A stretch of 64,000 bases of DNA, taken from sequence record NC_028659.1. The stretch is one strand, 5' to 3'. Made by a program: the position numbers and the translations under genes. This document shows, piece by piece, positions 10,475 through 61,631 of the stretch (positions are counted from its first letter, which is position 1; every line of letters starts with the position of its first letter). Source of the DNA: Klebsiella phage vB_KpnM_KB57. The notes below the pieces were generated by a model. It saw only the letters and a list, made by a program, of their open reading frames with translations, did no database searches and had not been told where the DNA came from.

Positions 10475-13189
10475 ATTAAAGGTCTGTTTATACTGGATAA
10501 CGAGGCCGATGGCCTGTTAGACGAAGTAACGAAGTACCATTGTACTTTGCTGAAAGAATTTGGGGTCAACAACTGGAATCTGTTTTTAGACCCCGCACAC
10601 CCAGAATATGAAAGCGCTGTAGCCTTTGCCAGGAGCAAGAAGGATGTTAACCTTACAATTCGTTCATACGATGAGCTGGAAAGCTTCCTGAAGACTTGTA
10701 GAGCCATTGCGTGTCACAACCTGTTTGGTTATGACCTGCGTCTGTGGAAGAAGTTATCGGGCATTGAATATGATATGTTCAAAGACCCGAAGTGCATGGG
10801 GACGATTGGGGATACACAGGTAAATCTCTACGACACCCTCTCTATGAGCCGTGTGCTTTATCCTGACCGTCCATTACCTAACGGTTGCCCTGACTCTGTT
10901 CTTAACCCGGTAACCGGGAAACGAGACCGTGTAGGTCCTCATGGCCTGTTGGCCTGGGGCTACCGCGTAGCAAACAAGAAAGTTCAGATCGATGACTGGC
11001 GTAACCAACCCTTGTGGGAATACGTTAATCGTGTCTGGGAAGACGTTTTAATCAACGAGTTAGTATGGCAATCCCTGATCGATGAATCTACAGGTGCTCG
11101 CTGGCCTGATGACAAGCAGTTCATGTACAAAGATAAACCGGAAGGGATGCGGCAGATCAACTGGAAGAACGCGCTACGCCGCCGTATGTTGACTGATTAC
11201 CTGATGATTGAGCAAGAAATTCAGGGTGTTCCATTCAATAAGCATGAAGCTGAAAAGCTGAGAGACCGTATTGATGTAATGATGAAAGAGATTGAGGAAG
11301 AAGTAGAACCTCAACTCCCGCTCAAAGAGATGACGAAGTCTCAACAGCCAAAATTCCCTGCTAGTCCTTTTGATGGTGCAGGAAGAATTTCCCATCACGG
11401 GTGGAATTGGTTAGAATACAAGCTGGGATATCCAGTTAATCGTGAAGCGCTGGAATTCAAAGGTCCACCGAAGACGGCGTTTAAAGGTAACGGTGATGTA
11501 AGTGCAGCAGGGGAAAGATACTGTATCCAGAATGGTGTTGAAGACCCGGCAGCGATGCCATACTTCATTAGAAGCCAGATAAAGAAAGAGAATACCCTTG
11601 TCCCATTGCCACCAGACCTAATGGAAAAGGCAATTGCCGATCTTCGTGCTGGAAAGATGCCAGACCTGATGGTTCCGATGAAGATCTCGAACCAGGACGA
11701 CATCAAGAAGTACCTGATCCGCGATGCGGGATGGAAACCAACGCTCTGGCGTGTTAAAGATGTGACGAAAGACCAGTTCAAAAAGACCCGTGATGATGCG
11801 GAGATTGATGGTCTGGTGCGTAAGTACATCGAAGAACTTGGAGAGTCCGAGTATAAATCTCTGATTCTTGAGCACTTAAATAATAGTGACGCAAAGTTCA
11901 ATATCTCGGAAAACAAGTTCGACCATCGTCATGGTTCTGATCGTGTTTACGAGGAGATCTTCAAGAAGTTCAGACGCAAAGCTCGTCAACTGCCGACTTC
12001 ACCACAGTTGAAGGATAACTTTGGCAAGCTGTGTCCTAACCTTGAAGTTATCGATGTTCACTTGGCTAAACAGATTGTTAAGTGGCTGTCATTACGTAAC
12101 CGTCGTTCTGTTCTCGACCCTATTGACGAGGATAAAAACGATACAGGGCTGTTGAATCATCCTCGCCTGGCGATTGATGGAAAACTTCCAGCTCGTTTCT
12201 CTGGTATCACTAACACCGGGCGTTGTAAGCACACCATTTGTGCAAACATGCCTAAACCAGACCCTAAGGTGTTACTGGGTAAAGAGATGCGCGGCCTCTG
12301 GGGTGTTACCGATGAATATTACCAGGTAGGTATCGATGGTTCTAACCTCGAAGGTATGATCGCGGCGTGGGGTGCATATCAGTTCGATGGTGGTGAATAC
12401 CTCCGTATCATGGAAAGTGGAGATGCCCACGCACGAAACGCCGAGGCATACACCAAAGCTTCTGGTACTCTGGTAACGCGTAACGGTGGTAAAGGGGTAA
12501 CCTACGGCATCATGTATGGTGCTCAGGCAGCTAAGATTGCAGCAATGCTTCACATTTCCCTTGACAAGGCACAGGCGGTAATCGATGCTTTCTGGGATAG
12601 TAACTTTGGTTTGAAAGGTCGTAAGGAATGGCTTGAAAACTTCTGGGAAGCAACGGGTAAACGTTATATCCCTGGTCTCGATGGTCGTAAGATTTGGACC
12701 CGTTCTAAGCACTCTCTTCTGAATGCTTTCCAGCAAAACGGTGGTGCATCTCTATTCGATCTGGTGGGTATCCTTCTTCATTGGGAACTGATCAAACGTG
12801 GCTGGTATGATGATGACGTTCGTCGCCTGATTTACTACCATGATGAATACCAGCTCCAGGTTCCTAAGAAATACTTGAAGAAGTGGGAGTTTGACACCCT
12901 GGAAGAGGCAACAGCTTTCGTAAAAGAATGGGAAGCAAAAGGCCGCGTATTTGACGGGCATGAGTGGAGAAAGGCCGTCAAAGATGAAAATGGTGATAAA
13001 GTCAAGGATGCGGAAGGTAATACAGTCTACGAGGGTATTTTTGGAGAGGATGGTAAAATTCACATCCAGTATTGCCCTGTAGGTGAAATGGTCGTAAGAT
13101 GTGTAGAGAAGGCAGCTCGTATCATGGGCAGTCCTGTACATATCACAGGGGCATATCTGACTGGTCGTAACTGGGCAGAGTGTCACTAA
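10475..13189 (+). CDS. family A DNA polymerase with 3'-5' exonuclease (T7 gp5-like); true start upstream of first ATG/TTG, probably non-canonical ATT at 10475
   Basis: Exo I motif ILDNEADGL encoded at 10487-10513 upstream of track start 10547; pol motif A GIDGSNLEGM, motif B RNGGKGVTYGIMYG, motif C YYHDEYQ; perfect SD AGGAGG at 10465-10470. Confidence 0.85.
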   Translation: MKGLFILDNEADGLLDEVTKYHCTLLKEFGVNNWNLFLDPAHPEYESAVAFARSKKDVNLTIRSYDELESFLKTCRAIACHNLFGYDLRLWKKLSGIEYDMFKDPKCMGTIGDTQVNLYDTLSMSRVLYPDRPLPNGCPDSVLNPVTGKRDRVGPHGLLAWGYRVANKKVQIDDWRNQPLWEYVNRVWEDVLINELVWQSLIDESTGARWPDDKQFMYKDKPEGMRQINWKNALRRRMLTDYLMIEQEIQGVPFNKHEAEKLRDRIDVMMKEIEEEVEPQLPLKEMTKSQQPKFPASPFDGAGRISHHGWNWLEYKLGYPVNREALEFKGPPKTAFKGNGDVSAAGERYCIQNGVEDPAAMPYFIRSQIKKENTLVPLPPDLMEKAIADLRAGKMPDLMVPMKISNQDDIKKYLIRDAGWKPTLWRVKDVTKDQFKKTRDDAEIDGLVRKYIEELGESEYKSLILEHLNNSDAKFNISENKFDHRHGSDRVYEEIFKKFRRKARQLPTSPQLKDNFGKLCPNLEVIDVHLAKQIVKWLSLRNRRSVLDPIDEDKNDTGLLNHPRLAIDGKLPARFSGITNTGRCKHTICANMPKPDPKVLLGKEMRGLWGVTDEYYQVGIDGSNLEGMIAAWGAYQFDGGEYLRIMESGDAHARNAEAYTKASGTLVTRNGGKGVTYGIMYGAQAAKIAAMLHISLDKAQAVIDAFWDSNFGLKGRKEWLENFWEATGKRYIPGLDGRKIWTRSKHSLLNAFQQNGGASLFDLVGILLHWELIKRGWYDDDVRRLIYYHDEYQLQVPKKYLKKWEFDTLEEATAFVKEWEAKGRVFDGHEWRKAVKDENGDKVKDAEGNTVYEGIFGEDGKIHIQYCPVGEMVVRCVEKAARIMGSPVHITGAYLTGRNWAECH

Positions 13190-13194
13190 TTACA

Positions 13195-13214
13195 GGGGCT
13201 TCGGCCCCTTTTTT
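13195..13214 (+). terminator. rho-independent terminator after DNA polymerase
   Basis: GGGGCTTCGGCCCC + TTTTTT. Confidence 0.7.
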
Positions 13215-13227
13215 CATAGGAGAGACC

Positions 13228-13455
13228 ATGTTTCCGAACAAACCTAAAGAAGCAACCCATTATTTTATGTATCCAGGACATCCTACTCCTGGCGGCAATT
13301 GGGCGTACTATGTCAGCTTTTTCAGGAAAGTTGCAGGTGAGTGGATGGTGTACACTACCGATACCGACAATGAGTACCCCGGCTGGTCATTGGCTTCTAG
13401 ACGCTATAAGAATAAAAGCTTCGAGACCATGATTGAATATTTGCAAGAAATTTAA
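13228..13455 (+). CDS. hypothetical small protein
   Basis: ATG 13228 after SD AGGAGA, downstream of polymerase terminator. Confidence 0.35.
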   Translation: MFPNKPKEATHYFMYPGHPTPGGNWAYYVSFFRKVAGEWMVYTTDTDNEYPGWSLASRRYKNKSFETMIEYLQEI

Positions 13456-13463
13456 AAATAGTG

Positions 13464-13492
13464 TTGACAGCCGTTTCGAATAGCATTAAAGT
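13464..13492 (+). promoter_or_regulatory. near-consensus sigma70 promoter TTGACA-17-TAAAGT with A/T-rich UP region
   Basis: read directly; drives 676-aa/139-aa cassette. Confidence 0.6.
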
Positions 13493-13550
13493 GTATCACA
13501 TGAAGACGAGAGACCTCGCTTCAAAATAACTTCACAAACAGGAGAACGAA

Positions 13551-15581
13551 ATGACCGCAAAATATGAAACCGTACCTTACGCTGACTTCGTAAAAGCTCT
13601 GAAAGCTCAGTTCGCTGTCATGCAAGCGCTGGGTGCGCTTTACACGGTCGATGTACCGAAAGATGAACTGTACGATCTGTACCTCGACTCTTTCCCGGAA
13701 GGCACCAATCTGATGTATAAAGAGCGCCGTGAATATGACTGTAACTGCTGCAAGAGCTACATCCGTACTCTGGGCCGAGTAGTCGCGATTCACAACGGCA
13801 AGCTGGTCTCTATTTGGGACGTTAAAGTTGGTGGTTACTACCAAGTTGTTGCCGATGCGATGAAAGCGCGTGTTGAAAGCGCCGAGATCCGCGATCGCTT
13901 CTTCCACTTCGAAGGCCGCGTTGGTACTGAGAGCAACGTAGCTCTGCTGGAAAATGGGAAAACCAAAACCTGGACCCACTTCCATCAGGCCCTGCCTCGC
14001 GAACTGGTTAAACGTGGTGAAGATATCCCTTCTGCCCTGGGTGAGTACCGTGACAACGCAACTGTGCTGGCACGTTCTCTGAAAGATATCGATATGGACT
14101 CTGCCGAAACGGTAATGGACCTGATCAACCAAGGCTCTCTGTACCGTGGTGATGAGAAAAAGCACATTGTTGCTGCCTTTATTAAGGCGAAACGTGCATA
14201 CGACAAAACGCCGGAAGATCAGCGAATGAACTTCTGCTGGAAACAAAGTGAAACGCTGGGTAAACTGGGCCGCTTCCGTAATGATGTCATCGGTACACTG
14301 ATGAGCGATCTGGCAGAAGGTATTGATCTTGAAGCCGCAGTGAAGTCCTTTGAAGACAAAGTCTCAGGGACCAACTACAAGCGTACTACAGCTCTGGTAA
14401 CTCCGGGCATGATCAAGGCAGCACAAGAGAAGGTTGAAGCCCTCGGCTTGACTGAATCTCTGGCACGTCGCTTTGCGGTGACCTCTGACCTGACGATCAA
14501 CAACGTGTTGTTTGCTGACCGTTCTGCAAAGGCCCAGATGAACGTATTCGAGCAACTGGCAGCGTCAACCAAAAACGCGCCGAAGTCACTGTCGAAAGTA
14601 GAAGAGATCAGCATTGAGGATTTCATCAACAACGTTCTGCCGAAAGCGGACACTATCGAAGCGCTGGTTGAAGGTCGTCTGACACCGAACCTGATGAGCC
14701 TGGTTGCCCCGGCAAACGCAGGTGCTCCTAACCTGTTCAAATGGGATAACGGCTTCTCCTGGTCGTATAATGGCGAAGTAACTGACTCCATCAAGGAGCG
14801 TGTGAAAGCCGCTGGCGGTAGCGTGACTGGTGACCTGCGTGTTTCGTTGTCCTGGTACAACAGTGATGACCTCGACCTGCACGTATTCGAGCCTGGTGGT
14901 GGTCAAATTTACTTCGGTAACAAACGTGGCCGCTCAACGGGTACGCTGGATGTGGATATGAATGCCTATGGCAAGTCAGACGCACACCATCCGGTTGAGA
15001 ACGTTACGTGGGAAAATGAGCGTAATATCACGGAAGGTGTTTACAAGGTTGTTGTTAACAACTATAATAAGCGCATGACTGATCGCGTTGGCTTCGAAGT
15101 ACAGATGGAATACAAAGGCCAAGTGTTCAACTTTGCATACCCGCAAGCTTTGGGTAATAGCAAGAGCCAGACCGTTGTAACCTTTAAGTATTCTCGTGCG
15201 AAAGGTGTTGAAATTGTAGACAGCATCGGGCATACTAAGCAATCTAAAGAAGTATGGGGCGTCTCTACCGAGACCTTCCAGAAAGTTTCTCTGGTGCTGA
15301 ATTCTCCTAACTTCTGGGATGGTCAGACCAAAGGTAACAAACACTACTTCTTTATGCTGGAAGGTTGCATTAACCCTGACGATACTCGTGGCTTCTACAA
15401 TGAGTATCTGCGTGACGAGCTGCATGAGCATCGTAAAGTGTTCGAAGTGTTGGGTTCCAAGCTCAAAGCTGAACACTCCACTGATCAACTGAGCGGCCTG
15501 GGCTTCTCGTCTACCCAGCGTAACGAGTTGGTTGTGAAGGTTACTGGTTCTTTCAACCGCACCCTGAAGATTAAATTCTGA
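13551..15581 (+). CDS. abundant early protein of unknown function (676 aa), host-optimised codon usage
   Basis: consensus sigma70 promoter upstream, SD CAGGAGAACGAAATG, strong CTG/CGT/GGT/AAA/GAA/TTC/TAC codon bias like the capsid and SSB genes; no recognisable motif. Confidence 0.6.
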   Translation: MTAKYETVPYADFVKALKAQFAVMQALGALYTVDVPKDELYDLYLDSFPEGTNLMYKERREYDCNCCKSYIRTLGRVVAIHNGKLVSIWDVKVGGYYQVVADAMKARVESAEIRDRFFHFEGRVGTESNVALLENGKTKTWTHFHQALPRELVKRGEDIPSALGEYRDNATVLARSLKDIDMDSAETVMDLINQGSLYRGDEKKHIVAAFIKAKRAYDKTPEDQRMNFCWKQSETLGKLGRFRNDVIGTLMSDLAEGIDLEAAVKSFEDKVSGTNYKRTTALVTPGMIKAAQEKVEALGLTESLARRFAVTSDLTINNVLFADRSAKAQMNVFEQLAASTKNAPKSLSKVEEISIEDFINNVLPKADTIEALVEGRLTPNLMSLVAPANAGAPNLFKWDNGFSWSYNGEVTDSIKERVKAAGGSVTGDLRVSLSWYNSDDLDLHVFEPGGGQIYFGNKRGRSTGTLDVDMNAYGKSDAHHPVENVTWENERNITEGVYKVVVNNYNKRMTDRVGFEVQMEYKGQVFNFAYPQALGNSKSQTVVTFKYSRAKGVEIVDSIGHTKQSKEVWGVSTETFQKVSLVLNSPNFWDGQTKGNKHYFFMLEGCINPDDTRGFYNEYLRDELHEHRKVFEVLGSKLKAEHSTDQLSGLGFSSTQRNELVVKVTGSFNRTLKIKF

Positions 15582-15587
15582 TGAAAA

Positions 15588-15607
15588 CGGGGTTGCAACC
15601 AACCCCG
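15588..15607 (+). promoter_or_regulatory. 8-bp perfect hairpin CGGGGTTG-CAAC-CAACCCCG immediately after stop of 676-aa gene (no T-tract)
   Basis: seen in sequence. Confidence 0.4.
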
Positions 15608-15810
15608 GTAACTGATAGACTCGTTGCATGTCTGGAGGGGTTCGCTCCTCCAGAAAATCCTTACCAAAGGATATGCAATGAGTTCGGGTGTGCGTACATA
15701 ACTGCAAAGAAAATGTTGCACTCCTTTACGTACCGGGCAACTGAACAACAATTGGCTGCGATTCTTGAAGAACGCAGCATACTGAAAAACTAAAAGAGGA
15801 GAACAAAAAT

Positions 15811-16230
15811 ATGTCAATCATCAATACTACCATCGCAAATACCGCTACCCTGTTCGAACTGGCTACCCGTAAAAAACTGCGTTTTGCAAGCCCGAAAGGT
15901 CTACTGACCACAGAAGATCTGTGGGATCTGCCGATGACTGGTAATACCAGCCTGGATACGGTTTCCAAACTGGCTAACCGTGATGTGAAAGCATCTGCTG
16001 AAGAAAGTTTCGTTGTCGAGGCCAGTGCTGTAAATGGCGAAGCAAACCTGAAGCTGGATATCCTGAAGTACATCATCTCGGTGCGTAAAGCGGAGATCGC
16101 GGATCGCCAGGCAGCGAAAGAGAAGGTTGAGCGTAAGCGTAAACTTCTGGACCTGCTGGCAGAGAAGGATAATGAGAAAGATGCAGCGATGTCTCGTGAA
16201 GAGATCCTGAAAGAGCTGGAATCTCTGTAA
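15811..16230 (+). CDS. unknown protein (139 aa) with K/E-rich coiled-coil C-terminus; co-transcribed with the 676-aa gene
   Basis: SD AAGAGGAGAACAAAAATATG, same codon bias, followed by rho-independent terminator. Confidence 0.55.
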   Translation: MSIINTTIANTATLFELATRKKLRFASPKGLLTTEDLWDLPMTGNTSLDTVSKLANRDVKASAEESFVVEASAVNGEANLKLDILKYIISVRKAEIADRQAAKEKVERKRKLLDLLAEKDNEKDAAMSREEILKELESL

Positions 16231-16241
16231 TCTGCCCGCCA

Positions 16242-16262
16242 AGGCCCTTCTGGGCCTTTTTG
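16242..16262 (+). terminator. rho-independent terminator ending the two-gene cassette
   Basis: AGGCCC-TTCT-GGGCCT + TTTTT. Confidence 0.7.
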
Positions 16263-16275
16263 TGTTGGAGGATAA

Positions 16276-16635
16276 ATGAAAGTAACTGGCAAACAAACTA
16301 TTGTACAGAATGTGGAAGTAGATATCTCTGATGAAGAGATCATGAATATTGTCAAGGCACAAACACCAGACTACCTCGCAGATGTCCTCACCAAAGAACT
16401 GCTGAGGGACTTCATCTATAGATTACCAGCAGATTTTACTGGTGAGCGGGCCGTGTGGGAAACACGTAAAAGAGGATATGAACCGTTTCTTGTACTTGTC
16501 CATGTAGACGCCTGGTGGGACTACCACAACAATGTTGGTGTGGATGAAGAAGTCAGACCGCTCACCGAAGAAGAAACGGCAAAATATAATATGATTTGCG
16601 GTTTGCGGGACTACATTAAGGAGCTGCAAAAATAA
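16276..16635 (+). CDS. hypothetical protein
   Basis: 119 aa, SD TTGGAGGATAAATG. Confidence 0.45.
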   Translation: MKVTGKQTIVQNVEVDISDEEIMNIVKAQTPDYLADVLTKELLRDFIYRLPADFTGERAVWETRKRGYEPFLVLVHVDAWWDYHNNVGVDEEVRPLTEEETAKYNMICGLRDYIKELQK

Positions 16636-16647
16636 TTCAAAAGCCTC

Positions 16648-16676
16648 TTGACTTCATGGTTGAGGGGCTTTATTGT
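16648..16676 (+). promoter_or_regulatory. sigma70-like promoter TTGACT-17-TATTGT ahead of small membrane-protein genes
   Basis: read directly; overlaps imperfect hairpin. Confidence 0.35.
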
Positions 16677-16704
16677 TATGGAAGCTAAATAACCTGGAGG
16701 GTGT

Positions 16705-16872
16705 ATGTTAGAGGCAATCAATTATTTCTTTTTAGTTCTGGCAGCAGTGGCCTGTGTTTCTTGTGCCTTCGGCGCTGTCTTTTCAAAAGATGAAACACAC
16801 CGCACGGTGTACGTAGGTTGTGCAGTCATCAACGCTGCTTTTACGGTGCATCTCTGGAGTATCGCCCTATGA
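16705..16872 (+). CDS. small membrane protein (55 aa; below ORF-track cutoff)
   Basis: ATG after GGAGGG; hydrophobic MLEAINYFFLVLAAVACVSC...; stop overlaps next start. Confidence 0.35.
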   Translation: MLEAINYFFLVLAAVACVSCAFGAVFSKDETHRTVYVGCAVINAAFTVHLWSIAL

Positions 16873-17313: not shown

Positions 17314-17562
17314 ATGAAAAAGATTATCCTAGCCGCCCTGCTCGCGCTTTCTTGCTCTGCACAAGCAACAGAGTTTTATCCTGAAGCAAACCCGAATGAT
17401 ATTAACGAGTCCGTTGATAGTGAACTGGCAAAGTCCCTACTGAAACGCGACACCCTTGAATTGAAAATTAAAATCGCAGAGCTTGAAGTGGAACTTGCCA
17501 AAATGAAGAAGACTCAAGTTCTATACAGCATTGCCCTTGAATCAATGGAGAAAAACAAATGA
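17314..17562 (+). CDS. small secreted/periplasmic coiled-coil protein
   Basis: signal peptide MKKIILAALLALSCSAQA; SD AAGAGGAGATTCAAATG. Confidence 0.45.
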   Translation: MKKIILAALLALSCSAQATEFYPEANPNDINESVDSELAKSLLKRDTLELKIKIAELEVELAKMKKTQVLYSIALESMEKNK

Positions 17563-18647
17563 CGATTACTCGCGGCCTTATCTTCGGAAAGTTTGCACCG
17601 CTGACCAACGGACATATTGAATTCATTCGCCAGGCGGCTTCTCAGGTTAGTGCTCTGTATCTGTTCCTGTCCTATGACCAGAAATTCGTTGACGCACAAC
17701 CAGAGTGGATTCGTCCTAAGCTGGGACTTGCTGATCGTTATCGTGACCTGCTGGATGTCATTGCCGACGAGGGACTTGACAACGTGAAGGTAGACTACGT
17801 TGATGAGTCGAATATCCCAGGATACCCTGAAGGCAGTGCTGCCTATGCAAAACTGATCCGTGAAAAGCAACCGTTCGTTAAGTACGATTTTGCTTTCTCT
17901 TCTGAGCCGGAGTATGAGTCTTACTTCAGTGAGTTCTTCCCTGAAGCGAAGCATGTAGTTATCGACGCAGAACGTAAAGCTGTTCCTATCTCAGCCACGA
18001 TGATCCGTAATGATCCGTACAACAACTTCTACAACCTAGCGTGGCCTGCACGTAAGCGCTTCATGAAGAAGGTTGCCATCATTGGTGTTGAGAGTACGGG
18101 CAAGACAACCTTGACACAACATCTGGCGCATACCTTCGGTGCTGGTTGGATTCCTGAGATCGGGAGGCTTATCTGTGAGCGTGAATACCACTCCAGTGAG
18201 TTAGCAATGTCTCGTGGAGACTATCTTCGTATCGCAATGGAGCATCGCCTGAAGGAAATGGAGTTAGCTGGTTGGGGTGGTTGTGGGGTTATGTTCTCTG
18301 ACACCACAAACCTGATCACTCATTTCTCTGGTATTTGTGCAGACAAGATCGACTACTCCGATCTTCTGTTCCGCACACTGAGCCGTGAAGAGAGCTACAA
18401 CTTCTACGACCTATTCCTGTTCCTAACACCAGAGGTCCCGTGGGTTGCTGATCCTCTTCGCTTGCAGGATACGCCAGAAAAGCGTAAAGAAACACATTCT
18501 TTGCTTGACACAATGATCAGGACATCTTACGATACAAGCAAGGTGGTAGTTATCTCAGGAAGTGATTACAAAGAACGTACTCAGAAAGCCGAAGAAGCTG
18601 TCCGTAAATTGCTGAATATCAAAGGAGAACAGAATGGGGTTTCCTAA
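17559..18647 (+). CDS. nadR: NadR-type bifunctional NMN adenylyltransferase / ribosylnicotinamide kinase
   Basis: N-terminal nucleotidyltransferase motif GKFAPLTNGH (HxGH), C-terminal kinase Walker A GVESTGKTTL; 362 aa. Confidence 0.8.
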   Translation: MTITRGLIFGKFAPLTNGHIEFIRQAASQVSALYLFLSYDQKFVDAQPEWIRPKLGLADRYRDLLDVIADEGLDNVKVDYVDESNIPGYPEGSAAYAKLIREKQPFVKYDFAFSSEPEYESYFSEFFPEAKHVVIDAERKAVPISATMIRNDPYNNFYNLAWPARKRFMKKVAIIGVESTGKTTLTQHLAHTFGAGWIPEIGRLICEREYHSSELAMSRGDYLRIAMEHRLKEMELAGWGGCGVMFSDTTNLITHFSGICADKIDYSDLLFRTLSREESYNFYDLFLFLTPEVPWVADPLRLQDTPEKRKETHSLLDTMIRTSYDTSKVVVISGSDYKERTQKAEEAVRKLLNIKGEQNGVS

Positions 18648-20638: not shown

Positions 20639-21361
20639 ATGAATACAAATCTGTACATTAAGACAGCGTGGACCGACTTTTATGGCTGGTCAAAACTTGA
20701 ATACCTTTGGCTCCTCATCTGCTCGGCATCGATCGCCATTGTCTCCTTGACTATGGGCGGTGGGTTAGTAGAGTTCATCTCTTCTGTCACCGGGATCATC
20801 GGGGCTATCCTAGTGGCAAAAGGTAAGCTCTCCAGTTATTACTGGGGCTTTGTGGCAACGGTGCTGTATGCATATATCTCCTTCACGTACAAGTTGTACG
20901 GTGAGACGATTATGTACACCCTGTTGTTCACCCCCATGCAGGTCATTGGTGGGGTAATCTGGGCGCGTAAGTTAACCGTCTCTGCGGATGGTGAACGTGC
21001 GGATGTCATCAAGAAGTATCTGACCACAAAACAGCGCTGGATTGTTGGTATCGGGACATTGGTGACGATCGGATTATACGCCGAGTTCGTTAGCCTGCTG
21101 AAAGGGAGTATGCCGGGTCTAGATTCTGCTACAGCAATCCTGTCGGTTCTGGCAACCTACCTGATGATGGTTCGTTATGCAGAACAATGGTATGTCTGGA
21201 TTATTGTTAACGTGGTTGCTGTGGCTCTGTGGATTCAGACAGCAATGCATCATGAAACACAAGGATGGGCAGTCCTTGCAATGTGGGTGACTTTCCTGTT
21301 AAACTCTGTGTACGGTGCTTACAAATGGCGTAAAACAGAAAAGGAAACTACACATGCGTGA
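20639..21361 (+). CDS. pnuC: PnuC-type nicotinamide riboside transporter
   Basis: 240 aa polytopic membrane protein with PnuC-like segments (WGF...YAYISF, WYVWIIVNVVAVALWIQ). Confidence 0.75.
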   Translation: MNTNLYIKTAWTDFYGWSKLEYLWLLICSASIAIVSLTMGGGLVEFISSVTGIIGAILVAKGKLSSYYWGFVATVLYAYISFTYKLYGETIMYTLLFTPMQVIGGVIWARKLTVSADGERADVIKKYLTTKQRWIVGIGTLVTIGLYAEFVSLLKGSMPGLDSATAILSVLATYLMMVRYAEQWYVWIIVNVVAVALWIQTAMHHETQGWAVLAMWVTFLLNSVYGAYKWRKTEKETTHA

Positions 21362-24309: not shown

Positions 24310-25530
24310 ATGAGCGTAGTAAACGAATACAAAGACCCAATGTCCGGCAAAGTAAACCACTTCGCAAAGGGCAGCATCAAATTTGTCAGCATCAAGCCCG
24401 TAAAAGATGGCCCGAATGTTGTCAACGGTGTTAAGACCACCTACATCAAGGTTCCAGGTCAGCCTGACAAGAAGATCGAAGCAACCCACGTCATCAGCTT
24501 CCTGATGCAAGATGTTGACGACAATAACAATGTTATCGATCCGCAGAGTACAGGCCAGTGGATCAGCATGGGAGAGAAGAAGCTTCATGCTAGCCATACT
24601 GACAAGGTGCAGGTGAAAATGGACAGCGGGTACAAAGATATCTTAGCAGGTATGGTTGTGTCCTTCCCTCTGAAAGTGTCTAAGAGTGGTGAAAACACCT
24701 ACTACAACGGTACTCTGAGCGGTAAAGTGTTCAACATTTTGGATGAAAGCAAAGCGGGACAACCTGCCCCTCGTCAACAGCAATCTTCTGCCCCAGCAGC
24801 ACAGTCAGGCGGTGGTGTTAAGATCTACGGTGAGATTACCGAAATCGTAGGTAATCTGGCGACTGTTAATGACGAGAAGAACGGCCCCGGCGGTGTAGTT
24901 CTTTCCGATGAACAATTGGCACAGGTATCTGTTGGTGGACGAATGACTGCCTTTGTGGATATGTCTAACGGTAACATCCTGAATGGATTCAAAGCTTACG
25001 GCCCCGCAGGTCAGAACAACGGCGGTTCTGGTGCCAAAGGCAAACGTAGCAATTACGATCCTGTTGGTGTATCTGCTGGTCATGCCATGAATGCTCTGGT
25101 AAACCTGAAGCTGTCAGGCTTTAAGGGCGATGTGGAAGCGGCAGGCAAGATAGTGCATGATGTTACCACCAAACTGATCAAGGAACTTTCAGAAGCTGAA
25201 GGTAAAGATGTTGGTCAGACCGTGGGTAACGCTGTCAAATATGCGGTGACGAACATTGCTGTCAAAGGAAAGACCATCGATGCAGACGAGCTTGAGAAGG
25301 CCACACGCGAAGCGTATGCGCTTGCAGCGACGTTCTACAGCTATGCCAGTGCAACGGCACAGGAAGAGTCGCAGAAGCCGTCACAGCCCATTCAGGAGCG
25401 TTTAACGACACCTCCTGCTCAAGAGGCTCCGGCTATGGATTTTGATGAACCTCCGATGGACTTCGATGATGATATCCCCTTTGCTCCAATCGGACTGCCG
25501 TATGGTCGTAACTTCATCCACTGCATCTAA
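24310..25530 (+). CDS. ssb: single-stranded DNA-binding protein with host-type acidic C-terminal tail
   Basis: C-terminus ...MDFDEPPMDFDDDIPF identical in style to E. coli SSB DDDIPF; SD TAAAGGAGAGAAGATG at 24310; optimised codons. Confidence 0.6.
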   Translation: MSVVNEYKDPMSGKVNHFAKGSIKFVSIKPVKDGPNVVNGVKTTYIKVPGQPDKKIEATHVISFLMQDVDDNNNVIDPQSTGQWISMGEKKLHASHTDKVQVKMDSGYKDILAGMVVSFPLKVSKSGENTYYNGTLSGKVFNILDESKAGQPAPRQQQSSAPAAQSGGGVKIYGEITEIVGNLATVNDEKNGPGGVVLSDEQLAQVSVGGRMTAFVDMSNGNILNGFKAYGPAGQNNGGSGAKGKRSNYDPVGVSAGHAMNALVNLKLSGFKGDVEAAGKIVHDVTTKLIKELSEAEGKDVGQTVGNAVKYAVTNIAVKGKTIDADELEKATREAYALAATFYSYASATAQEESQKPSQPIQERLTTPPAQEAPAMDFDEPPMDFDDDIPFAPIGLPYGRNFIHCI

Positions 25531-55253: not shown

Positions 55254-56801
55254 TTAGTTATCCAAGTTAGAGACAGAATTATCTCTTACTTTAGACGTCC
55301 CATTACCAGAAGTACCTTGCTTCATTCCATCACCGGAGCGACTGGTATCTTCCCCAAGGATCTTGAGTAGTTCCTCTTGAGATGTGTTTTCAGGAATCTC
55401 TTCATCAAACCCACCAACCTCAAGGATCTTGTTGATAACTGTAGGTGTCTTCGGCAGATAACCAACAGCACCAATTCTCTGAACAAATTTGGAGAAGCTT
55501 TCCATATCAACTTCCTGGATAGCTCCAGGCTTAAGTCTTGGCATGTCTTCATCAGACAAACGGATATTATTAAGAGCGAGTAGTTGAGGAATCAAGTTCT
55601 TGTTGAATGATTCACAAATAATATCGATATCTCGTTGAACAAAATGTCCGTGGATTGTTTGTTTTGATTCCGACAGGTTGTAAGACCCTTGACCATCATT
55701 CCCTAAGTTGATGAATCCCGCACCAAATCTGTCCAAGATCGCCTTCTTACGCTCTTGTATTAGGTCCTTGGTACTGTACTGTTTACCAACCCCATCGATT
55801 CCCTTAAGGGTCATCTTATACTGCTCACCGCCCTTATCATTCATATCTGAAGGTAAGATGAAGTAAGATTGTTCACCTGAATGTGCGTTTGCAGCGTCAG
55901 CCATCAGGCCACGAACCATATCTGCTTCAGGTGATCTCGGGTCCATAGATGCCTTATTCAGAATTGAAGAAGGGATCTTTAATTCAATGATACCGCCGAG
56001 GTCCTTAGATGCCCCTATAACTTCGAGGTTTTCGATCAGGATTTTTTCACGGAATGCACGGTAACAACCAACAAGAGGTGATACACCTGTAGGGTTTGAT
56101 TCTGTCCCACCAAGAGACATTATCATCAACTTATTCACAGGAATGAATTTCTCATCCGCACTTCCTGACAGATTTGTGACGAGACTCATGGCCCCAGCAA
56201 TCTGGTTCATCCCGTTCTGGAAATTAGCAAAAGCTAGTGCGCTTTGATAAACACCTGTGATTGTCCTTCCATCATCGCTGAAGACAAAAGGTTTTGTACG
56301 AGAGAGGCTTGACTGAGGACGGAAAGCAATTTTGTCGATCGTCATATAGCCTGCGTACTTAGATGGCGCGGATTCTGTTCTGTAGACCTTTTCGAATACA
56401 GAGAAACCATACTCGTTAAATGTCGCAGCACTTCTCGCCACATCGCGAAGCGTCTGTTGGTTAGCAAGATTCTTCAGAGCATACTCGACGAAATCTGCCG
56501 CTTTTTTAGACTCTTCACTATCTCGGTTGAAAAGAATTTTAAAATCATTGAAAGCCTTGGTGACAAAAACATATTTCGTATCCAGCGCTGTGGCAACAGT
56601 ATGGTCTTGCTTCATGGAATCCACTGTTGCGAGGAACATAGGCCAGCGGAGTTCTTCAACCTTCATAATCTCAGATTCAGCACGAATCTGAGACAATGCT
56701 CCACTACCCAGTTCTCCAGTACGGACACGACTCACAGCAAGGTTTTCATTCCCTGCTTTTGCCACCGCATTCTTTCTTTTTCTGTTTCTGCGATTTGACA
56801 C
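55254..56801 (-). CDS. portal protein
   Basis: 515 aa directly downstream of large terminase. Confidence 0.6.
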   Translation of the reverse strand: MSNRRNRKRKNAVAKAGNENLAVSRVRTGELGSGALSQIRAESEIMKVEELRWPMFLATVDSMKQDHTVATALDTKYVFVTKAFNDFKILFNRDSEESKKAADFVEYALKNLANQQTLRDVARSAATFNEYGFSVFEKVYRTESAPSKYAGYMTIDKIAFRPQSSLSRTKPFVFSDDGRTITGVYQSALAFANFQNGMNQIAGAMSLVTNLSGSADEKFIPVNKLMIMSLGGTESNPTGVSPLVGCYRAFREKILIENLEVIGASKDLGGIIELKIPSSILNKASMDPRSPEADMVRGLMADAANAHSGEQSYFILPSDMNDKGGEQYKMTLKGIDGVGKQYSTKDLIQERKKAILDRFGAGFINLGNDGQGSYNLSESKQTIHGHFVQRDIDIICESFNKNLIPQLLALNNIRLSDEDMPRLKPGAIQEVDMESFSKFVQRIGAVGYLPKTPTVINKILEVGGFDEEIPENTSQEELLKILGEDTSRSGDGMKQGTSGNGTSKVRDNSVSNLDN

Positions 56802-56816
56802 GAGTCATCCCCTCTA

Positions 56817-58340
56817 TTATAATCGTGTATACATAGTCGGAGCAACAATCCTTGGGATTACGACAGGTCTGATGATCTCCGTTTTCTCCAGGAAGTTAAT
56901 ACCTGAAGAGATGGCGTCAACCCAGTCGTCCTTACGGGACACAGTGCTTCGCTCGCCATTAAATTTCTCAAGTTCATTCATGAGGGCTTCATATGTCTTT
57001 GCGTCAAAACTGTTACGGACAATACGAACAAAGCCTTGTTGTGCAAGCTGGGCAAAGGGTGCGAAACGAGTAAGTTTCGACTTGTTGCCTGGCGTAGGGT
57101 CTTTCTCAACCACATAACCATCCGCGAGCAATGCTCTTGAGCTGGTGAGGAATTCGCTTATACCAGCTTGGCCTGGGTCAACTGAGAAAATAATCGTTAC
57201 ATCATCACCATCATGTTCTGCTTGTTTTTTGATAATTGCATCACGTTCGCCAGCCTTCTTACAGAAGCGGCCTTGAGTTCCTGTGGAATAGAGACCATCA
57301 TCAACGAACTCGGCACAATAATCACCGGATAAATAGTAAAAACCCTCGGTGTCTTTACTCACTTTCACGGAGGCTGTAAAGTCAGGATGTCTGTTACCAG
57401 ATGTCCTTTCAGTTCCTGCCTTATCGTATGGCCTTACAGATGTGCAACCTAAAGGTAGACATGCCACCTCTTTCAAATAGGATCTTTGAAAATAGTTTGC
57501 ACCCTCAGGGCGAGCATTCCAGTTACCATAAAGTAACTGTGCCTTTTCAACTTCAGGAAGCCCTTTCAGGAATGCCAGATATTCTTTGTTATTCTCCAGC
57601 ATCGGAGGGTTATCATAAATGTTAGCGGAGATGAAGGAAAATGTCAGAGCATCGTCGGCGTCATCACCATAAAGCTCTCTCAGTTCTTCTTGAGACTCAC
57701 CCCAGACAAAGTTACCATCTTGACGGAGGAACCAACGGATGACACCGTCACGCTCAGGGATTGGATATCCATCATCGTCAAGATACCAATCGATAAGTTC
57801 TTTTATTTTGTGATCCGGGTCCGGGTTACAAGAAATTACCATGCGACTTGGGTATTTAGATTCAGAACGTAGACGAGAGATTAGGTAGTCGATCTGCTCC
57901 CATTCGAACTGGCATCCTTCATCGAAACCAACAAAAGTGTACTGAAGACCCTGGTGGTTAAGTTTGTCCTTCACATATTCCATGTGAGACCATTTTACCT
58001 TTGCGCCAGGACGACCCTTTTTGAATGTCTGTGTCTCCGCGTCAAAGTATGGGAATATTGCCTCAAGCTCTTTCTCTCTAAAGCGTGGTTTCCATGCATC
58101 AGGTAGTTCATTATAAATGCTTTGTGCTGTATCAAATAAACCACCCTGGCCTTTCAACTGAGGTGTGGTTCTACGGAACATGATACAGTTCGATTTTGGA
58201 TCATCGATATATGCTAAAGGCATTAATTGTAACAGATACGATTTACCTGACCCCGCAGCGCCCCCAATGATCAGGATTTGCGCCTTATTTTCCAGGATCA
58301 TTTTCTGCTTAGGGCTGGCGGGTCCAAAAGTCTTACTCAA
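56817..58340 (-). CDS. terL: terminase large subunit
   Basis: Walker A IIGGAAGSGKSY, 507 aa, C-terminal nuclease-like region. Confidence 0.85.
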   Translation of the reverse strand: MSKTFGPASPKQKMILENKAQILIIGGAAGSGKSYLLQLMPLAYIDDPKSNCIMFRRTTPQLKGQGGLFDTAQSIYNELPDAWKPRFREKELEAIFPYFDAETQTFKKGRPGAKVKWSHMEYVKDKLNHQGLQYTFVGFDEGCQFEWEQIDYLISRLRSESKYPSRMVISCNPDPDHKIKELIDWYLDDDGYPIPERDGVIRWFLRQDGNFVWGESQEELRELYGDDADDALTFSFISANIYDNPPMLENNKEYLAFLKGLPEVEKAQLLYGNWNARPEGANYFQRSYLKEVACLPLGCTSVRPYDKAGTERTSGNRHPDFTASVKVSKDTEGFYYLSGDYCAEFVDDGLYSTGTQGRFCKKAGERDAIIKKQAEHDGDDVTIIFSVDPGQAGISEFLTSSRALLADGYVVEKDPTPGNKSKLTRFAPFAQLAQQGFVRIVRNSFDAKTYEALMNELEKFNGERSTVSRKDDWVDAISSGINFLEKTEIIRPVVIPRIVAPTMYTRL

Positions 58341-60885: not shown

Positions 60886-60973
60886 ATTATTTGGTGCAAC
60901 CTTCAGGTAACGATCCTGACTATCTGGCTTTTCAGGCCAGCACACATCCGTCTATGTCAAAGTTGCATAATGT

Positions 60974-61049
60974 GGTGGGCGACAGGGGACTCGAACCCCC
61001 AAAATTCGGAATCTAAATCCGACACGTATACCAATTCCATCAATCGCCC
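60974..61049 (-). tRNA. tRNA with anticodon TAG (Leu codon CUA) but short variable arm
   Basis: hand-folded cloverleaf, A73, T-loop TTCGAGT. Confidence 0.4.
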
Positions 61050-61084
61050 GTGCGCTTGGGTCCGAAGAAGTCCAAGCCTTAATT

Positions 61085-61160
61085 TGGTGGAGTCACTGAG
61101 AATCGAACTCAGTTCTACAAGGTGCAAGCCTGTAATTTTATCCAAATAAACTATAACCCC
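61085..61160 (-). tRNA. tRNA-Ala (TGC)
   Basis: anticodon loop CTTGCAC; T-loop TTCGATT. Confidence 0.5.
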
Positions 61161-61163
61161 AAT

Positions 61164-61236
61164 TGGTGTGGATGGAAGGACTCGAACCTACATCAAACGG
61201 CTTCGTAGACCGTTGCCTGTCCGTCAGGACACCCAC
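61164..61236 (-). tRNA. tRNA-Arg (ACG)
   Basis: anticodon loop CTACGAA; small D-arm. Confidence 0.5.
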
Positions 61237-61242
61237 ATAATT

Positions 61243-61319
61243 TGGTCTCCATAGAGTGACTCGAACACTCAACCTCCTGGTCCCAAACCAGGCGCTCTAC
61301 ACTATTGAGCTACACGGAG
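61243..61319 (-). tRNA. tRNA-Pro (TGG)
   Basis: perfect anticodon stem CCTGG/CCAGG, loop TTTGGGA. Confidence 0.6.
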
Positions 61320-61463
61320 AGATAGGTGCAGAATTTTAATTATCCCAGACACTGCAACTGGTATCGCTGGCTAGCTAATATCATGCCCCGTTAGGGTACA
61401 ATTGGTTTGATACGTCGAACTCATTTTGAGTGCCTTCCGGCAATTTACATCAACATATCAAAT

Positions 61464-61539
61464 TGGCGAGGATAACGGGATTCGAACCCGTGACTCCGGC
61501 GTGACAGGCCAGTATGTTTGCCGCTAATACCATATCCCC
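61464..61539 (-). tRNA. tRNA-Asp (GTC)
   Basis: anticodon loop CTGTCAC; T-loop TTCGAAT. Confidence 0.55.
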
Positions 61540-61546
61540 ATGAATT

Positions 61547-61631
61547 TGGCGACGAGCGTAGGAATTGAACCTACATAGAGCTAATGCTCGCGGATTAACA
61601 GTCCGCCGTTCTACCAATGAACCAGCTCGTC
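61547..61631 (-). tRNA. tRNA with anticodon GTT (Asn) carrying a 15-nt stem-forming variable arm (85 nt)
   Basis: perfect acceptor GACGAGC/GCTCGTC, D-stem GTTC/GAAC, anticodon stem GCGGA/TCCGC, variable GAGC-ATTA-GCTC-TAT. Confidence 0.45.

What the first reader, a model, noticed from the sequence alone, without database searches (positions are those of the whole stretch)
13456..16262. Self-contained, host-codon-optimised two-gene cassette (676 aa + 139 aa) of unknown function under a near-consensus sigma70 promoter
The segment between the polymerase terminator (13195-13214) and the terminator at 16242-16262 has TTGACA-17-TAAAGT with an A/T-rich UP region. Two ORFs follow (13551-15581, 15811-16230). 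Their codon usage is E. coli high-expression type (CTG, CGT, GGT, AAA, GAA, TTC, TAC), as in the capsid and SSB genes and unlike the surrounding early genes (TTA, AGA, ATA common). That signature means very high early abundance. I recognise no motif in either protein: no Walker box and no known catalytic signature. The second protein is a K/E-rich coiled coil. Abundant, host-RNAP-transcribed early proteins of unknown function are classic anti-defence or host-takeover candidates (Ocr/Alt-style). The bias could also reflect recent acquisition.
Basis: partly seen in the sequence, partly recalled or inferred. Interest (0 to 1): 0.75.

Follow-up and report, generated by a model that had tools for sequence, protein, structure and literature searches.

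The report
Widespread abundant phage gene pair, unknown function
This is a real, self-contained and probably very highly expressed operon, but its two main proteins belong to a huge, ancient and still uncharacterised phage gene pair (DUF8224 plus a small helical partner) that repeatedly sits next to RNA-repair genes, so it is not a recent import and does not look like an Ocr- or Alt-type effector.

Summary
Window 13464-16265 of this Mydovirus (Vequintavirinae) Klebsiella phage is a self-contained operon.

The 139-aa and 676-aa genes rank 3rd and 4th of 71 ORFs for CAI (0.54, 0.51). Only the major head (0.69) and head decoration (0.61) genes are higher.

- The 676-aa protein is Pfam DUF8224 / PHROG 1735, an uncharacterised family with 6,915 clusters at 50% identity.
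- The 139-aa helical protein is its obligate downstream neighbour in about 135 loci from phages and prophages of many phyla. The Kuttervirus pair is also codon-optimised, so recent acquisition is rejected.
- Only one domain has a known fold: a TerD-like beta-sandwich inserted at about aa 412-566. Short variants without it also lack the partner.
- In cyanophage Ma-LMM01 the pair is middle class, not early.
- Both proteins have near-neutral pI, and no Ocr- or Alt-like features were found.

Recurrent neighbours are RNA-repair and ADP-ribose enzymes: RtcB, Thg1-like, Tpt1, Macro, RlaP, RNA ligase and PNK.

Best reading (about 0.35): an abundant stoichiometric complex serving an RNA/tRNA damage response. 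The function is untested.

The parts
13194..13217 (+). Intrinsic terminator ending the DNA polymerase transcription unit. It is the left landmark only: the 75-aa ORF 13228-13455 lies between it and the cassette promoter and is not part of the cassette.
   Evidence: Hairpin AGGGGCTTCGGCCCCT followed by a T-run.
13440..13463 (+). A/T-rich UP-element-like stretch just upstream of the -35 hexamer. It overlaps the end of the 75-aa ORF.
   Evidence: Read directly from the sequence. Function is inferred.
13464..13492 (+). Sigma70-type promoter TTGACA-17-TAAAGT, the left edge of the conserved cassette.
   Evidence: 10/12 match. Homology with Iguana_ER37 starts exactly at 13464, with TTGACA kept and the -10 reading TAAATT. 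One such match alone is not statistically significant.
13540..13544 (+). Shine-Dalgarno sequence AGGAG of the 676-aa gene.
   Evidence: Read directly from the sequence.
13551..15581 (+). g676: a 676-aa DUF8224 (PF26675) / PHROG 1735 protein, 75.9 kDa, pI 6.5, CAI 0.51.
   Evidence: AF2 model pLDDT 77.6.
13740..13979 (+). Span holding the family-wide invariant residues Cys64, Cys67 and His143, a candidate structural metal site.
   Evidence: These residues are conserved in both long and short variants. Metal binding is inferred, not tested.
14811..15245 (+). TerD-like beta-sandwich (aa about 421-565; the gap in short variants spans about 412-566). It carries the invariant acidic residues D440, D442, D467, D469 and E483 and is an inserted domain.
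15581..15793 (+). g70: a lineage-specific 70-aa ORF with low CAI (0.20), inserted between the two conserved genes.
   Evidence: Absent in VLCpiM5b. 88.6% aa identity in Erwinia phage Hena1. Substitutions are mostly at the third codon position.
15588..15653 (+). Two strong RNA hairpins just 3' of the g676 stop: 15588-15607, and 15632-15653 with a UUCG loop. Possibly an intra-operon mRNA stabiliser or attenuator.
   Evidence: Fold of 15578-15800 gives -79 kcal/mol, z -5.7. The stems are invariant in 6 phages and the changes fall in loops or as G-U pairs. Function is inferred.
15796..15801 (+). Shine-Dalgarno sequence GAGGAG of the 139-aa gene.
   Evidence: Read directly from the sequence.
15811..16230 (+). 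g139: a 139-aa all-helical partner protein (PHROG 2018), pI 5.7, CAI 0.54. It has a conserved N-terminal motif F..A.R.K.RF....G.L..EDLWDL and a long helix at 71-126.
16241..16265 (+). Intrinsic terminator closing the operon.
   Evidence: Hairpin AAGGCCCTTCTGGGCCTT followed by a T-run.

Best explanation
**What is shown**
The segment is a self-contained operon: promoter, DUF8224 gene, a lineage-specific 70-aa ORF in a highly structured RNA stretch, a helical partner gene, and a terminator. DUF8224 and the partner form an obligate, tightly linked gene pair. The pair is an ancient accessory module of medium and large tailed phages and prophages across many bacterial phyla. Codon use predicts that both proteins are made in near-capsid amounts.

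**What is inferred**
- The two proteins form a stoichiometric, probably non-catalytic binding or scaffolding complex.
- Its target is common to all bacteria, most likely RNA (tRNA or other RNA damaged during infection).
- It works with or alongside RNA end-healing and sealing enzymes and ADP-ribose-processing enzymes. The effect would be to keep the translation apparatus working when host defences cut or modify RNA, that is, counter-defence by protection or repair.
- The family-wide invariant Arg, Trp and Tyr residues and the Cys-Cys-His cluster of the core would form the binding surface and a structural metal site.
- The inserted TerD-like, probably Ca-binding, sandwich is the module with which the small helical protein co-occurs. 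It probably serves assembly or regulation.
- In this phage, transcription is by host RNA polymerase from a sigma70-type promoter. The timing is unknown here and is middle class in the one relative with data.
For: **Operon anatomy and expression**
- Promoter, terminators and ORFs are in place, and the cassette boundary falls at the promoter.
- CAI ranks 3rd and 4th of 71 ORFs. The Kuttervirus ECML-4 pair is also raised: 0.48 and 0.60 against 0.27-0.39 for its neighbours.

**Obligate pairing**
- A partner gene lies 3' of the large gene in every genome locus that has downstream DNA.
- In the IMG/VR set, 78 of 78 loci with downstream DNA have the partner, 72 of them within 400 nt.
- The median gap is 22.5 nt, and 40 of 52 gaps are 60 nt or less.
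- No other neighbour gene cluster occurs in more than 6 of about 60 loci.

**Family size and conservation**
- 6,915 clusters at 50% identity and 551 phage records.
- 39-54% identity in loci from Proteobacteria, Firmicutes, Actinobacteria, Cyanobacteria, Bacteroidota, Spirochaetes and CPR bins.

**Conserved residues**
- Core residues shared by long and short variants are Y44, C64, C67, H143, R199, Y276, R278, R306, R307, W89/230/398/404/589, E618, R628 and E632.

**TerD-like insert**
- The insert is missing from the short variants, and none of the three short-variant loci has a partner homologue.

**RNA-repair neighbourhood** (Pfam-confirmed; positions)
- RtcB: L018 (ends 54 nt before the large gene), L036, L038.
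- Thg1-like: L023, L026, L047, L072.
- Tpt1: L027, L037, L038, L039.
- Macro, directly upstream: L027, L037, L039.
- RlaP: L023 (directly upstream), L038.
- RNA ligase between the two genes: L035, L037.
- PNK: next but one gene downstream of the short variant in a Xanthomonas phage.
- The pattern recurs in IMG/VR loci: RtcB in L115, Macro in L099, L128, L130 and L161, PNK in L099 and L134. L137 is the same Bradyrhizobium RtcB locus as L018.
- There are at least six different arrangements.

**Timing**
- The Ma-LMM01 homologues gp014 and gp013 are in the middle class.
Against: - No RNA- or DNA-binding domain was detected by sequence or fold.
- Both proteins are near neutral.
- Only about 10-17% of sampled loci have an RNA-repair neighbour, and many of these are Lachnospiraceae prophages that may not be fully independent.
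- The 64-kb window itself has no RNA-repair gene detectable with my seed proteins.
- Other neighbours are DNA-metabolism genes: DNA polymerase and primase here, clamp loader, RNR, ThyX, RecA, and a PD-(D/E)XK nuclease with an SbcC-like ATPase elsewhere. These fit a DNA-directed role equally well.
- Adjacency could reflect only clustering of accessory or counter-defence genes.
- No complex prediction and no experiment of any kind is available.
Confidence: 0.35

Rival explanations
1. The pair is a DNA-directed structural factor of the replication phase. An abundant complex coats, organises or protects replicating phage DNA, or acts as a recombination or replisome accessory.
For: - The pair sits inside replication and nucleotide-metabolism gene blocks.
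  - Here it lies after the methyltransferase, primase/helicase and DNA polymerase genes.
  - In ECML-4 it lies after the clamp loader, RegA and MazG genes.
  - Next to RNR in Cellulophaga and Xanthomonas phages.
  - Between ThyX and RecA in Ma-LMM01.
  - Next to a PD-(D/E)XK nuclease, FtsK-gamma, an SbcC-like ATPase and a DNA methylase in a Burkholderia prophage.
- It has middle-class expression with the replication genes in Ma-LMM01.
- It has invariant Arg residues.
- It is predicted to be abundant.
Against: - There is no DNA-binding fold or motif.
  - SAP is not detected.
  - The TetR-type HTH resemblance has E about 1 and contradicts the model's secondary structure.
  - The GapR similarity was rejected, hhalign probability 2%.
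- pI is near neutral.
- Replication-block location is the default for most non-structural phage genes.
Confidence: 0.2
2. The pair is a direct anti-defence or host-takeover effector, made early in large amounts, that blocks a host protein or sequesters an immune signal (Ocr, Alt or sponge style).
For: - It has a host-type promoter.
- It is predicted to be abundant.
- It is an accessory, cassette-like unit with a patchy distribution, for example only 30 Escherichia phage records.
- It neighbours counter-defence-type genes.
Against: - 40-54% identity across host phyla and a constant length of about 670 aa are unlike known inhibitors, which are small, fast-evolving and narrow in range.
- It is not acidic.
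- It has no ART motif and no PADLOC-related match.
- It is middle class, not early, in Ma-LMM01.
- It is also present in temperate prophages and in a C. difficile 132-kb plasmid record.
Confidence: 0.15
3. The pair has a Ter-like calcium or envelope-stress function. The TerD-like domain would make the complex a Ca-dependent membrane- or ion-linked factor that stabilises the infected cell or times lysis.
For: - It has a TerD fold with invariant acidic residues.
- Foldseek also finds PLAT/C2-like lipid-binding sandwiches.
- TerD-domain genes are highly transcribed in gut jumbo phages (PMC12880540).
- MoxR-type ATPase genes neighbour the pair in Alteromonas and Bacillus phages, with a COG3864 gene as well in Alteromonas.
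Against: - The TerD-like block is an optional insertion. The conserved core exists without it.
- There is no Pfam TerD match.
- There is no predicted membrane segment.
- No ter-operon genes lie nearby.
- The function of TerD itself is unknown, so this reading explains little.
Confidence: 0.1
4. The proteins are virion components, such as internal or ejected proteins or a decoration. This would explain capsid-like codon use.
For: - CAI is second only to the head and decoration proteins.
- T4 Alt-type internal proteins set a precedent (own knowledge).
Against: - The pair is on the opposite strand and far from the structural module (25.6-60.7 kb, minus strand), inside the replication block.
- It has a host-type promoter.
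- It is middle class, while head and sheath genes are late, in Ma-LMM01.
- It is annotated 'hypothetical', not 'structural', in all records seen.
- No morphogenesis neighbour recurs.
- The virion proteomes I could read did not settle the point.
Confidence: 0.05

Closest known systems
TerD family (tellurite-resistance protein TerD, K. pneumoniae, PDB 2kxt; SCO6318, 2qz7)
   Different: Here it is one inserted domain in a 676-aa protein whose core exists without it. There is no Pfam TerD or DUF2135 match at E <= 0.1 and no ter operon. TerD proteins are stand-alone proteins of about 190 aa.
Ro60/Rsr with Y RNA and RtcB (bacterial RNA quality-control and repair module)
   Same: As proposed here, a non-catalytic RNA-handling protein encoded next to RNA-repair enzymes such as RtcB. 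This is a functional analogy, from own knowledge.
Phage T4 tRNA repair (Pnk plus Rnl1) and related phage RNA-repair sets
   Same: RNA ligase, PNK, RtcB, Thg1-like and Tpt1 genes are recurrent neighbours of the pair.
   Different: Neither protein has ligase, kinase or phosphatase motifs or a Pfam match. The window phage has no such gene near the cassette.
T7 Ocr / T4 Alt
   Same: Predicted abundant, a host-RNAP promoter, and a non-structural location.
   Different: pI is 6.5 and 5.7, against a strongly acidic DNA mimic. No ART fold or motif was detected. The pair is conserved across phyla rather than lineage-restricted. Relatives are middle class, not immediate-early.

Membership tests
Pfam DUF8224 (PF26675) / PHROG 1735 | Significant profile match over the whole protein. 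| tested here: met
   PHROG 1735 E 1.8e-298 over residues 9-676. PF26675 is precomputed on P0001, which is 99% identical to g676, and on all listed homologues. It is named DUF8224. The model is absent from the local Pfam copy.
PHROG 2018 (partner protein) | Profile match, and a position immediately 3' of a DUF8224 gene. | tested here: met
   E 2.1e-43. Adjacent in all loci with downstream DNA.
TerD family (PF02342) | TerD beta-sandwich fold. | tested here: met
TerD family (PF02342) | Sequence-profile match to TerD, and a stand-alone ~190-aa architecture in a ter gene cluster. | tested here: not met
   No Pfam hit at E <= 0.1. No PDB sequence or profile hit. The domain is inserted in a 676-aa protein and has no ter neighbours.
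TerD family (PF02342) | Ca-binding acidic motifs. | tested here: inconclusive
   Invariant D440, D442, D467, D469, E483 and N484 lie in the insert. They were not superposed on the TerD Ca sites.
DUF2135 / COG4676 (YfaP) | Profile match to PF09906. | tested here: not met
   The labels 'DUF2135' (KpS11 record) and COG4676 (AD45-P1 record) exist, but local Pfam gives no hit at E <= 0.1.
SAP DNA-binding domain | Profile match to the SAP motif. | tested here: not met
   The KP12 record carries this label. There is no Pfam SAP hit for the whole protein or for segment 268-335 of 27 homologues at E <= 10.
Ocr-type DNA mimic | A small, strongly acidic protein. | tested here: not met
   75.9 kDa with pI 6.54, and 15.5 kDa with pI 5.68.
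Alt/Mod-type ADP-ribosyltransferase | ART fold with an R-S-E or H-Y-E motif. | tested here: not met
   No Pfam, PDB-sequence or fold match. Packaging into virions was not tested.
GapR / DUF2312 nucleoid protein (for g139) | Profile similarity. | tested here: not met
   hmmsearch E 0.13. hhalign probability 2% over 20 columns.
Known anti-phage defence proteins (PADLOC) | Profile match. | tested here: not met
   No hit below E 0.03 for any of the three ORFs.
Virion structural protein | Detected in purified virions. | not testable with these tools
   The location, the promoter and middle-class expression in a relative argue against it. No usable virion proteome was found.

The most novel reading that the evidence does not exclude
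DUF8224 plus its helical partner is a previously unrecognised and nearly universal phage ribonucleoprotein-handling complex. It would act as a 'tRNA/RNA guardian', made in capsid-like amounts, that binds the cell's tRNA or damaged RNA, shields it, or hands it to RtcB, ligase, PNK, Thg1 or Tpt1-type repair enzymes. That would give large phages a generic answer to RNA-cleaving and RNA-modifying defences. It would be analogous to Ro60 but with an unrelated fold and a Ca-sensing TerD module.
Probability: 0.25. Interest if true: 0.85.

Novelty: categorically new. Interest (0 to 1): 0.62.

Why it matters
If the pair is as abundant as its codon use predicts, it is one of the largest protein investments these phages make besides the capsid. 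It occurs in thousands of phage lineages infecting most bacterial phyla, including therapeutic Klebsiella, Salmonella and E. coli phages (Mydovirus, Kuttervirus). Yet nothing is known about it.

A function for this pair would annotate thousands of 'hypothetical proteins' at once. The RNA-repair neighbourhood gives a concrete, testable entry point: does a generic, stoichiometric RNA-protection system exist in phages? The work also shows that the TerD fold, itself of unknown function, has been recruited as an insert together with a dedicated partner protein.

'Categorically new' here means that no characterised relative or system matches. The sequences themselves are already in databases as hypothetical proteins.

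Tried and rejected
**Sequence and family searches**
- Local Pfam, NCBIfam and PADLOC gave nothing for g676, g139 or g70.
- PDB sequence and profile searches gave nothing significant.

**Fold searches**
- The afdb50 library was unavailable.

**Specific resemblances rejected**
- GapR for g139.
- SAP and TetR-type HTH for segment 268-335.
- DUF2135 by profile.

**RNA elements**
- Rfam gave nothing in 13000-16800.
- The tRNA genes are far away, at 60.9-64 kb.

**Recent horizontal acquisition as the cause of the codon bias**
- The pair is syntenic in all relatives.
- Codon bias is shared by the Kuttervirus pair.
- The GC3 shift equals that of the head gene.

**A third conserved gene of the module**
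- Clustering of about 990 neighbour ORFs found none.

**Literature**
- No paper mentions PF26675 or DUF8224, or DUF2135 together with phage.
- The rV5, KpS8 and phiD3 papers gave no usable information on expression or virion content.
- The Burroughs and Aravind 2016 RNA-repair survey could not be fetched.
- One literature search was wasted on overly general terms.


Full report
**Identity of the window**

The region 13200-16400 is 99.5-99.8% identical to Klebsiella, Proteus and Raoultella phages of the genus Mydovirus (Vequintavirinae), such as KpS8, KNP2, BIS47 and Mydo. In those records the genes are 'hypothetical protein'. A few labels conflict: 'DNA-directed RNA polymerase', 'SAP DNA-binding domain-containing protein' and 'DUF2135 domain-containing protein'. 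PHROG searches place the cassette after rIIB, a Dda-like helicase, the primase/helicase and the DNA polymerase. It lies on the strand opposite to, and far from, the structural module, which holds tail fibre, sheath, major head and head decoration genes.

**Check of the observation**

- Terminator-like hairpins with T-runs lie at 13194-13209 and 16241-16258. The promoter-like site TTGACA-17-TAAAGT lies at 13464-13492 (sequence).
- The ORFs 13551-15581 (676 aa, 'g676') and 15811-16230 (139 aa, 'g139') have strong Shine-Dalgarno sequences.
- A 10/12 promoter match is not significant on its own: the 64-kb window has 28 such sites against 16.8 +/- 4.2 in shuffled sequence.
- The site is nevertheless intergenic and 58 nt upstream of the start codon. 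In phage Iguana_ER37 the upstream 75-aa ORF is replaced by an HNH endonuclease gene, and homology with the window resumes exactly at the -35 hexamer, with TTGACA retained and the -10 reading TAAATT. The promoter is therefore the left edge of a conserved unit.

The codon-usage claim is confirmed.
- With the Sharp-Li E. coli index, g139 (0.536) and g676 (0.511) rank 3rd and 4th of 71 ORFs.
- The window median is 0.273 and the sd 0.096.
- Only the major head protein (0.689) and the head decoration protein (0.605) are higher. Tail sheath is 0.385 and DNA polymerase 0.366.

A 70-aa ORF, g70 (15581-15793), overlaps the g676 stop codon and fills the gap between the two genes.
- Its CAI is low (0.20).
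- It is an indel. It is absent from Mydoviruses VLCpiM5b and P8734, where a different UUCG hairpin occupies the spot. No ORF separates the two genes in the distant cassettes examined.
- Substitutions against Erwinia phage Hena1 fall mainly on third codon positions (5/5/22), so it is probably translated.
- Its first 100 nt are almost invariant. The stretch 15578-15800 folds unusually well, at -79 kcal/mol with z -5.7.
- It is 88.6% identical in Hena1, although g676 is only 73% and g139 about 64% identical there.

**The large protein**

g676 matches PHROG 1735 (E 1.8e-298, 'unknown function'). Its homologues carry Pfam PF26675, which is DUF8224. That model is newer than the local Pfam copy, which is why one search was empty.

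The family is very large and very conserved.
- It has 6,915 representatives of 50%-identity clusters at E <= 0.001, and 1,243 at E <= 1e-30, almost all 650-700 aa long.
- It occurs in 551 phage records, including the following:
  - Ackermannviridae
  - Bacillus Bastillevirinae
  - Caulobacter phiCbK-like phages
  - Vibrio, Alteromonas and Cellulophaga phages
  - Microcystis Ma-LMM01
  - Bacillus SP-15
- It was found at 65 loci in genome assemblies of Proteobacteria, Firmicutes, Actinobacteria, Cyanobacteria, Bacteroidota, Spirochaetes, CPR and others. These include prophage-like regions of isolates (Bradyrhizobium, Micromonospora, Salinispora, Paenibacillus) and a C. difficile 132-kb plasmid record.
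- Identity to the window protein stays at 40-54% regardless of host phylum. This is a degree of constraint unusual for a phage accessory protein.

**The small protein and the pairing**

g139 matches PHROG 2018. It models as an all-helical protein with pLDDT 84: a short N-terminal helix and hairpin, a helix at 48-63, and a long helix at 71-126. It has a conserved N-terminal motif F..A.R.K.RF....G.L..EDLWDL.

A homologue lies directly 3' of the large gene in a wide range of genomes.
- This holds in Kuttervirus ECML-4, Bacillus phage Emiliahah, Caulobacter phage Ccr5 and Ma-LMM01.
- It holds in every genome locus that has downstream DNA.
- In an independent IMG/VR sample, 78 of 78 loci with downstream DNA have the partner. 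In 72 of them it lies within 400 nt; the rest are up to 2.5 kb away.
- In Cellulophaga phi4:1 it lies 4.6 kb away.
- The median spacing is 22.5 nt, and 40 of 52 gaps are 60 nt or less.
- Clustering of about 990 neighbouring ORFs found no third gene in more than 6 of about 60 loci.
- The ECML-4 pair also has raised CAI, 0.48 and 0.60 against 0.27-0.39 for its neighbours.

High expression is therefore a property of the module, not of this phage. 'Recent acquisition' does not explain the bias.

**Structure**

An alignment of 60 long and 50 short (~540-aa) family members shows that the short form is the long form minus residues about 412-566. The short form occurs in Xanthomonas, Stenotrophomonas and Burkholderia phages and prophages and in some jumbo phages. 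The TerD-like sandwich is therefore an inserted domain.
- Residues conserved in both forms are Y44, C64, C67, H143, R199, Y276, R278, R306, R307, five Trp, E618, R628 and E632.
- The insert carries its own invariant acidic set: D440, D442, D467, D469, E483 and N484.
- None of the three short-variant loci has a g139 homologue, even at E <= 10. The partner therefore goes with the insert. This rests on three loci.
- Both proteins are near neutral, with pI 6.5 and 5.7.

**Expression timing**

The only usable data are from Ma-LMM01 RNA-seq (PMC5780444, supplement). The homologues gp014 and gp013 are in class B5, 'middle'. Their values are 0, 2.8/2.6, 10.7/11.1 and 10.8/11.2 at the four successive time points. 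They group with the replication genes, not with the early host-takeover block gp054-063 and not with the late head and sheath genes. In the window phage the sigma70-type promoter allows early transcription but does not prove it.

**Functional lead from gene neighbourhoods**

No third gene is universal. However, the neighbours that do recur are dominated by RNA-repair and ADP-ribose enzymes. All of the following were confirmed with Pfam (positions).
- **RtcB:** in Bradyrhizobium (ends 54 nt before the large gene), in a Lachnospiraceae contig, and in the C. difficile plasmid record.
- **Thg1-like tRNA 5'-end repair enzyme:** four loci.
- **Tpt1/KptA:** four loci.
- **Macro domain, directly upstream:** three loci.
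- **RlaP:** two loci, directly upstream in Siminovitchia, where the order is Thg1, RlaP, DUF8224, partner.
- **Rnl2-type RNA ligase between the two genes:** two loci.
- **PNK:** next but one gene downstream of the short variant in a Xanthomonas phage.

In all, 12 of about 70 loci have such a neighbour, in at least six different arrangements. The pattern recurs in the IMG/VR sample in 7 of 80 loci, found with seed proteins taken almost entirely from Firmicutes loci. One of the seven, L137, is the same Bradyrhizobium RtcB locus as L018. The others show RtcB close downstream of the pair in L115, Macro in L099, L128, L130 and L161, and PNK in L099 and L134.

The window itself has no such gene detectable with these seeds. 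Elsewhere the neighbours are DNA-metabolism genes, or NAD-salvage genes (NadR and PnuC here, PRPP synthase and NAMPT in 0507-KN2-1).

**Interpretation**

Shown:
- The operon is self-contained.
- The gene pair is obligate, ancient and very widespread.
- Codon use predicts near-capsid abundance.
- The TerD-like domain is an insertion that co-occurs with the partner.

Inferred:
- Abundance, tight coupling and the absence of any catalytic signature point to a stoichiometric binding or scaffolding complex.
- Cross-phylum conservation points to a universal target.
- The recurrent RNA-repair neighbours and the invariant Arg, Trp and Tyr set point to RNA, perhaps tRNA.

I therefore rank an RNA damage-response role first, at about 0.35. 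This is counter-defence by protection or repair, analogous but not homologous to Ro60 with RtcB. The other readings rank as follows:
- a DNA-directed replication-phase factor, 0.2
- a Ter-like Ca or envelope function, 0.1
- a virion protein, 0.05

The remainder is 'something else'. None of these has been tested by experiment.

**Comparison with known families, and novelty**

Membership is established only for uncharacterised families (DUF8224, PHROG 1735, PHROG 2018). For the TerD family the fold is met, but the sequence profile and the architecture are not. The labels SAP, DUF2135, GapR, Ocr, Alt and 'RNA polymerase' are not supported. No paper in the library mentions the family. The module fits no known kind of system, although identical sequences are already deposited as hypothetical proteins.

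**Limits**
- The E. coli CAI index was used as a proxy for Klebsiella.
- The AF2 model has pTM 0.47, so domain packing is uncertain.
- The neighbourhood enrichment has no formal background model.
- Some Lachnospiraceae loci are related to one another.

Noticed in passing
window 15578-15800: The 70-aa ORF between the two cassette genes lies in an unusually structured RNA stretch (-79 kcal/mol, z -5.7). It has two invariant hairpins, one with a UUCG loop. The ORF is more conserved between Mydovirus and Erwinia phage Hena1 (88.6% aa) than the flanking genes (73% and 64%). Mydoviruses that lack it carry another UUCG hairpin at the same spot.
   Followed up: partly
window 15040-15068 (+): A promoter-like site TTTACA-17-TATAAT (11/12) lies inside the 676-aa gene, about 770 nt upstream of the 139-aa gene. 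It could give the partner gene separate transcription.
   Followed up: no
window 56795-56823 (+): A perfect 12/12 sigma70 consensus (TTGACA-17-TATAAT) lies on the + strand, between two minus-strand structural-region genes. It points antisense to the late genes.
   Followed up: no
window 10547-13189; L001, L002, L081: The DNA polymerase gene is intact in the window. It is interrupted by an HNH endonuclease gene in KpS11 and KP12. In Iguana_ER37 an HNH gene replaces the 75-aa ORF 13228-13455. This suggests active homing-endonuclease traffic around the cassette.
   Followed up: partly
L035 2047-2685; L037 8160-8798: In two Lachnospiraceae contigs an Rnl2-type RNA ligase gene (Pfam RNA_ligase, E 1e-22) is inserted between the DUF8224 gene and its partner. 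This is the same position that the 70-aa ORF occupies in the window.
   Followed up: yes
window 60892-63976 (-): A cluster of 19 tRNA genes. One ARAGORN call (62865-62934) has an abnormal two-base anticodon.
   Followed up: no
window 24310-25530 (+): A 406-aa protein of PHROG 4477 (unknown function) has the 8th highest CAI of 71 ORFs (0.41), above the tail sheath. It is another probably abundant unknown.
   Followed up: no
window 17559-18647 and 20639-21361 (+); L086 4038-5007: NAD-salvage genes lie a few kb downstream of the cassette (NadR-type NMN adenylyltransferase and a PnuC-like transporter). In Klebsiella phage 0507-KN2-1, ribose-phosphate pyrophosphokinase and nicotinamide phosphoribosyltransferase directly follow the pair.
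   Followed up: no
one search hits H77, H84, H85; protein P0047: The DUF8224 gene is fragmented or truncated in Dickeya Limestonevirus records and in Klebsiella phage NDO71 (381 aa). Several small PHROGs (23228, 25920, 21434, 38165) are fragments of it. The gene is either dispensable there or split by inserted elements.
   Followed up: no
L075 2349-4975; L004 6535-7611: A MoxR-type AAA+ ATPase lies directly beside the pair in Alteromonas phage AD45-P1, together with a COG3864 gene. A MoxR-like ATPase (PHROG 2376) also lies beside it in Bacillus phage Emiliahah.
   Followed up: no
records OY757067, OY978784, OY979426: The feature tables of these Klebsiella phage records appear shifted relative to their sequence. 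For example, 'ribonucleotide reductase' or 'RNA ligase' is annotated over the 70-aa ORF. Their annotations were ignored.
   Followed up: partly
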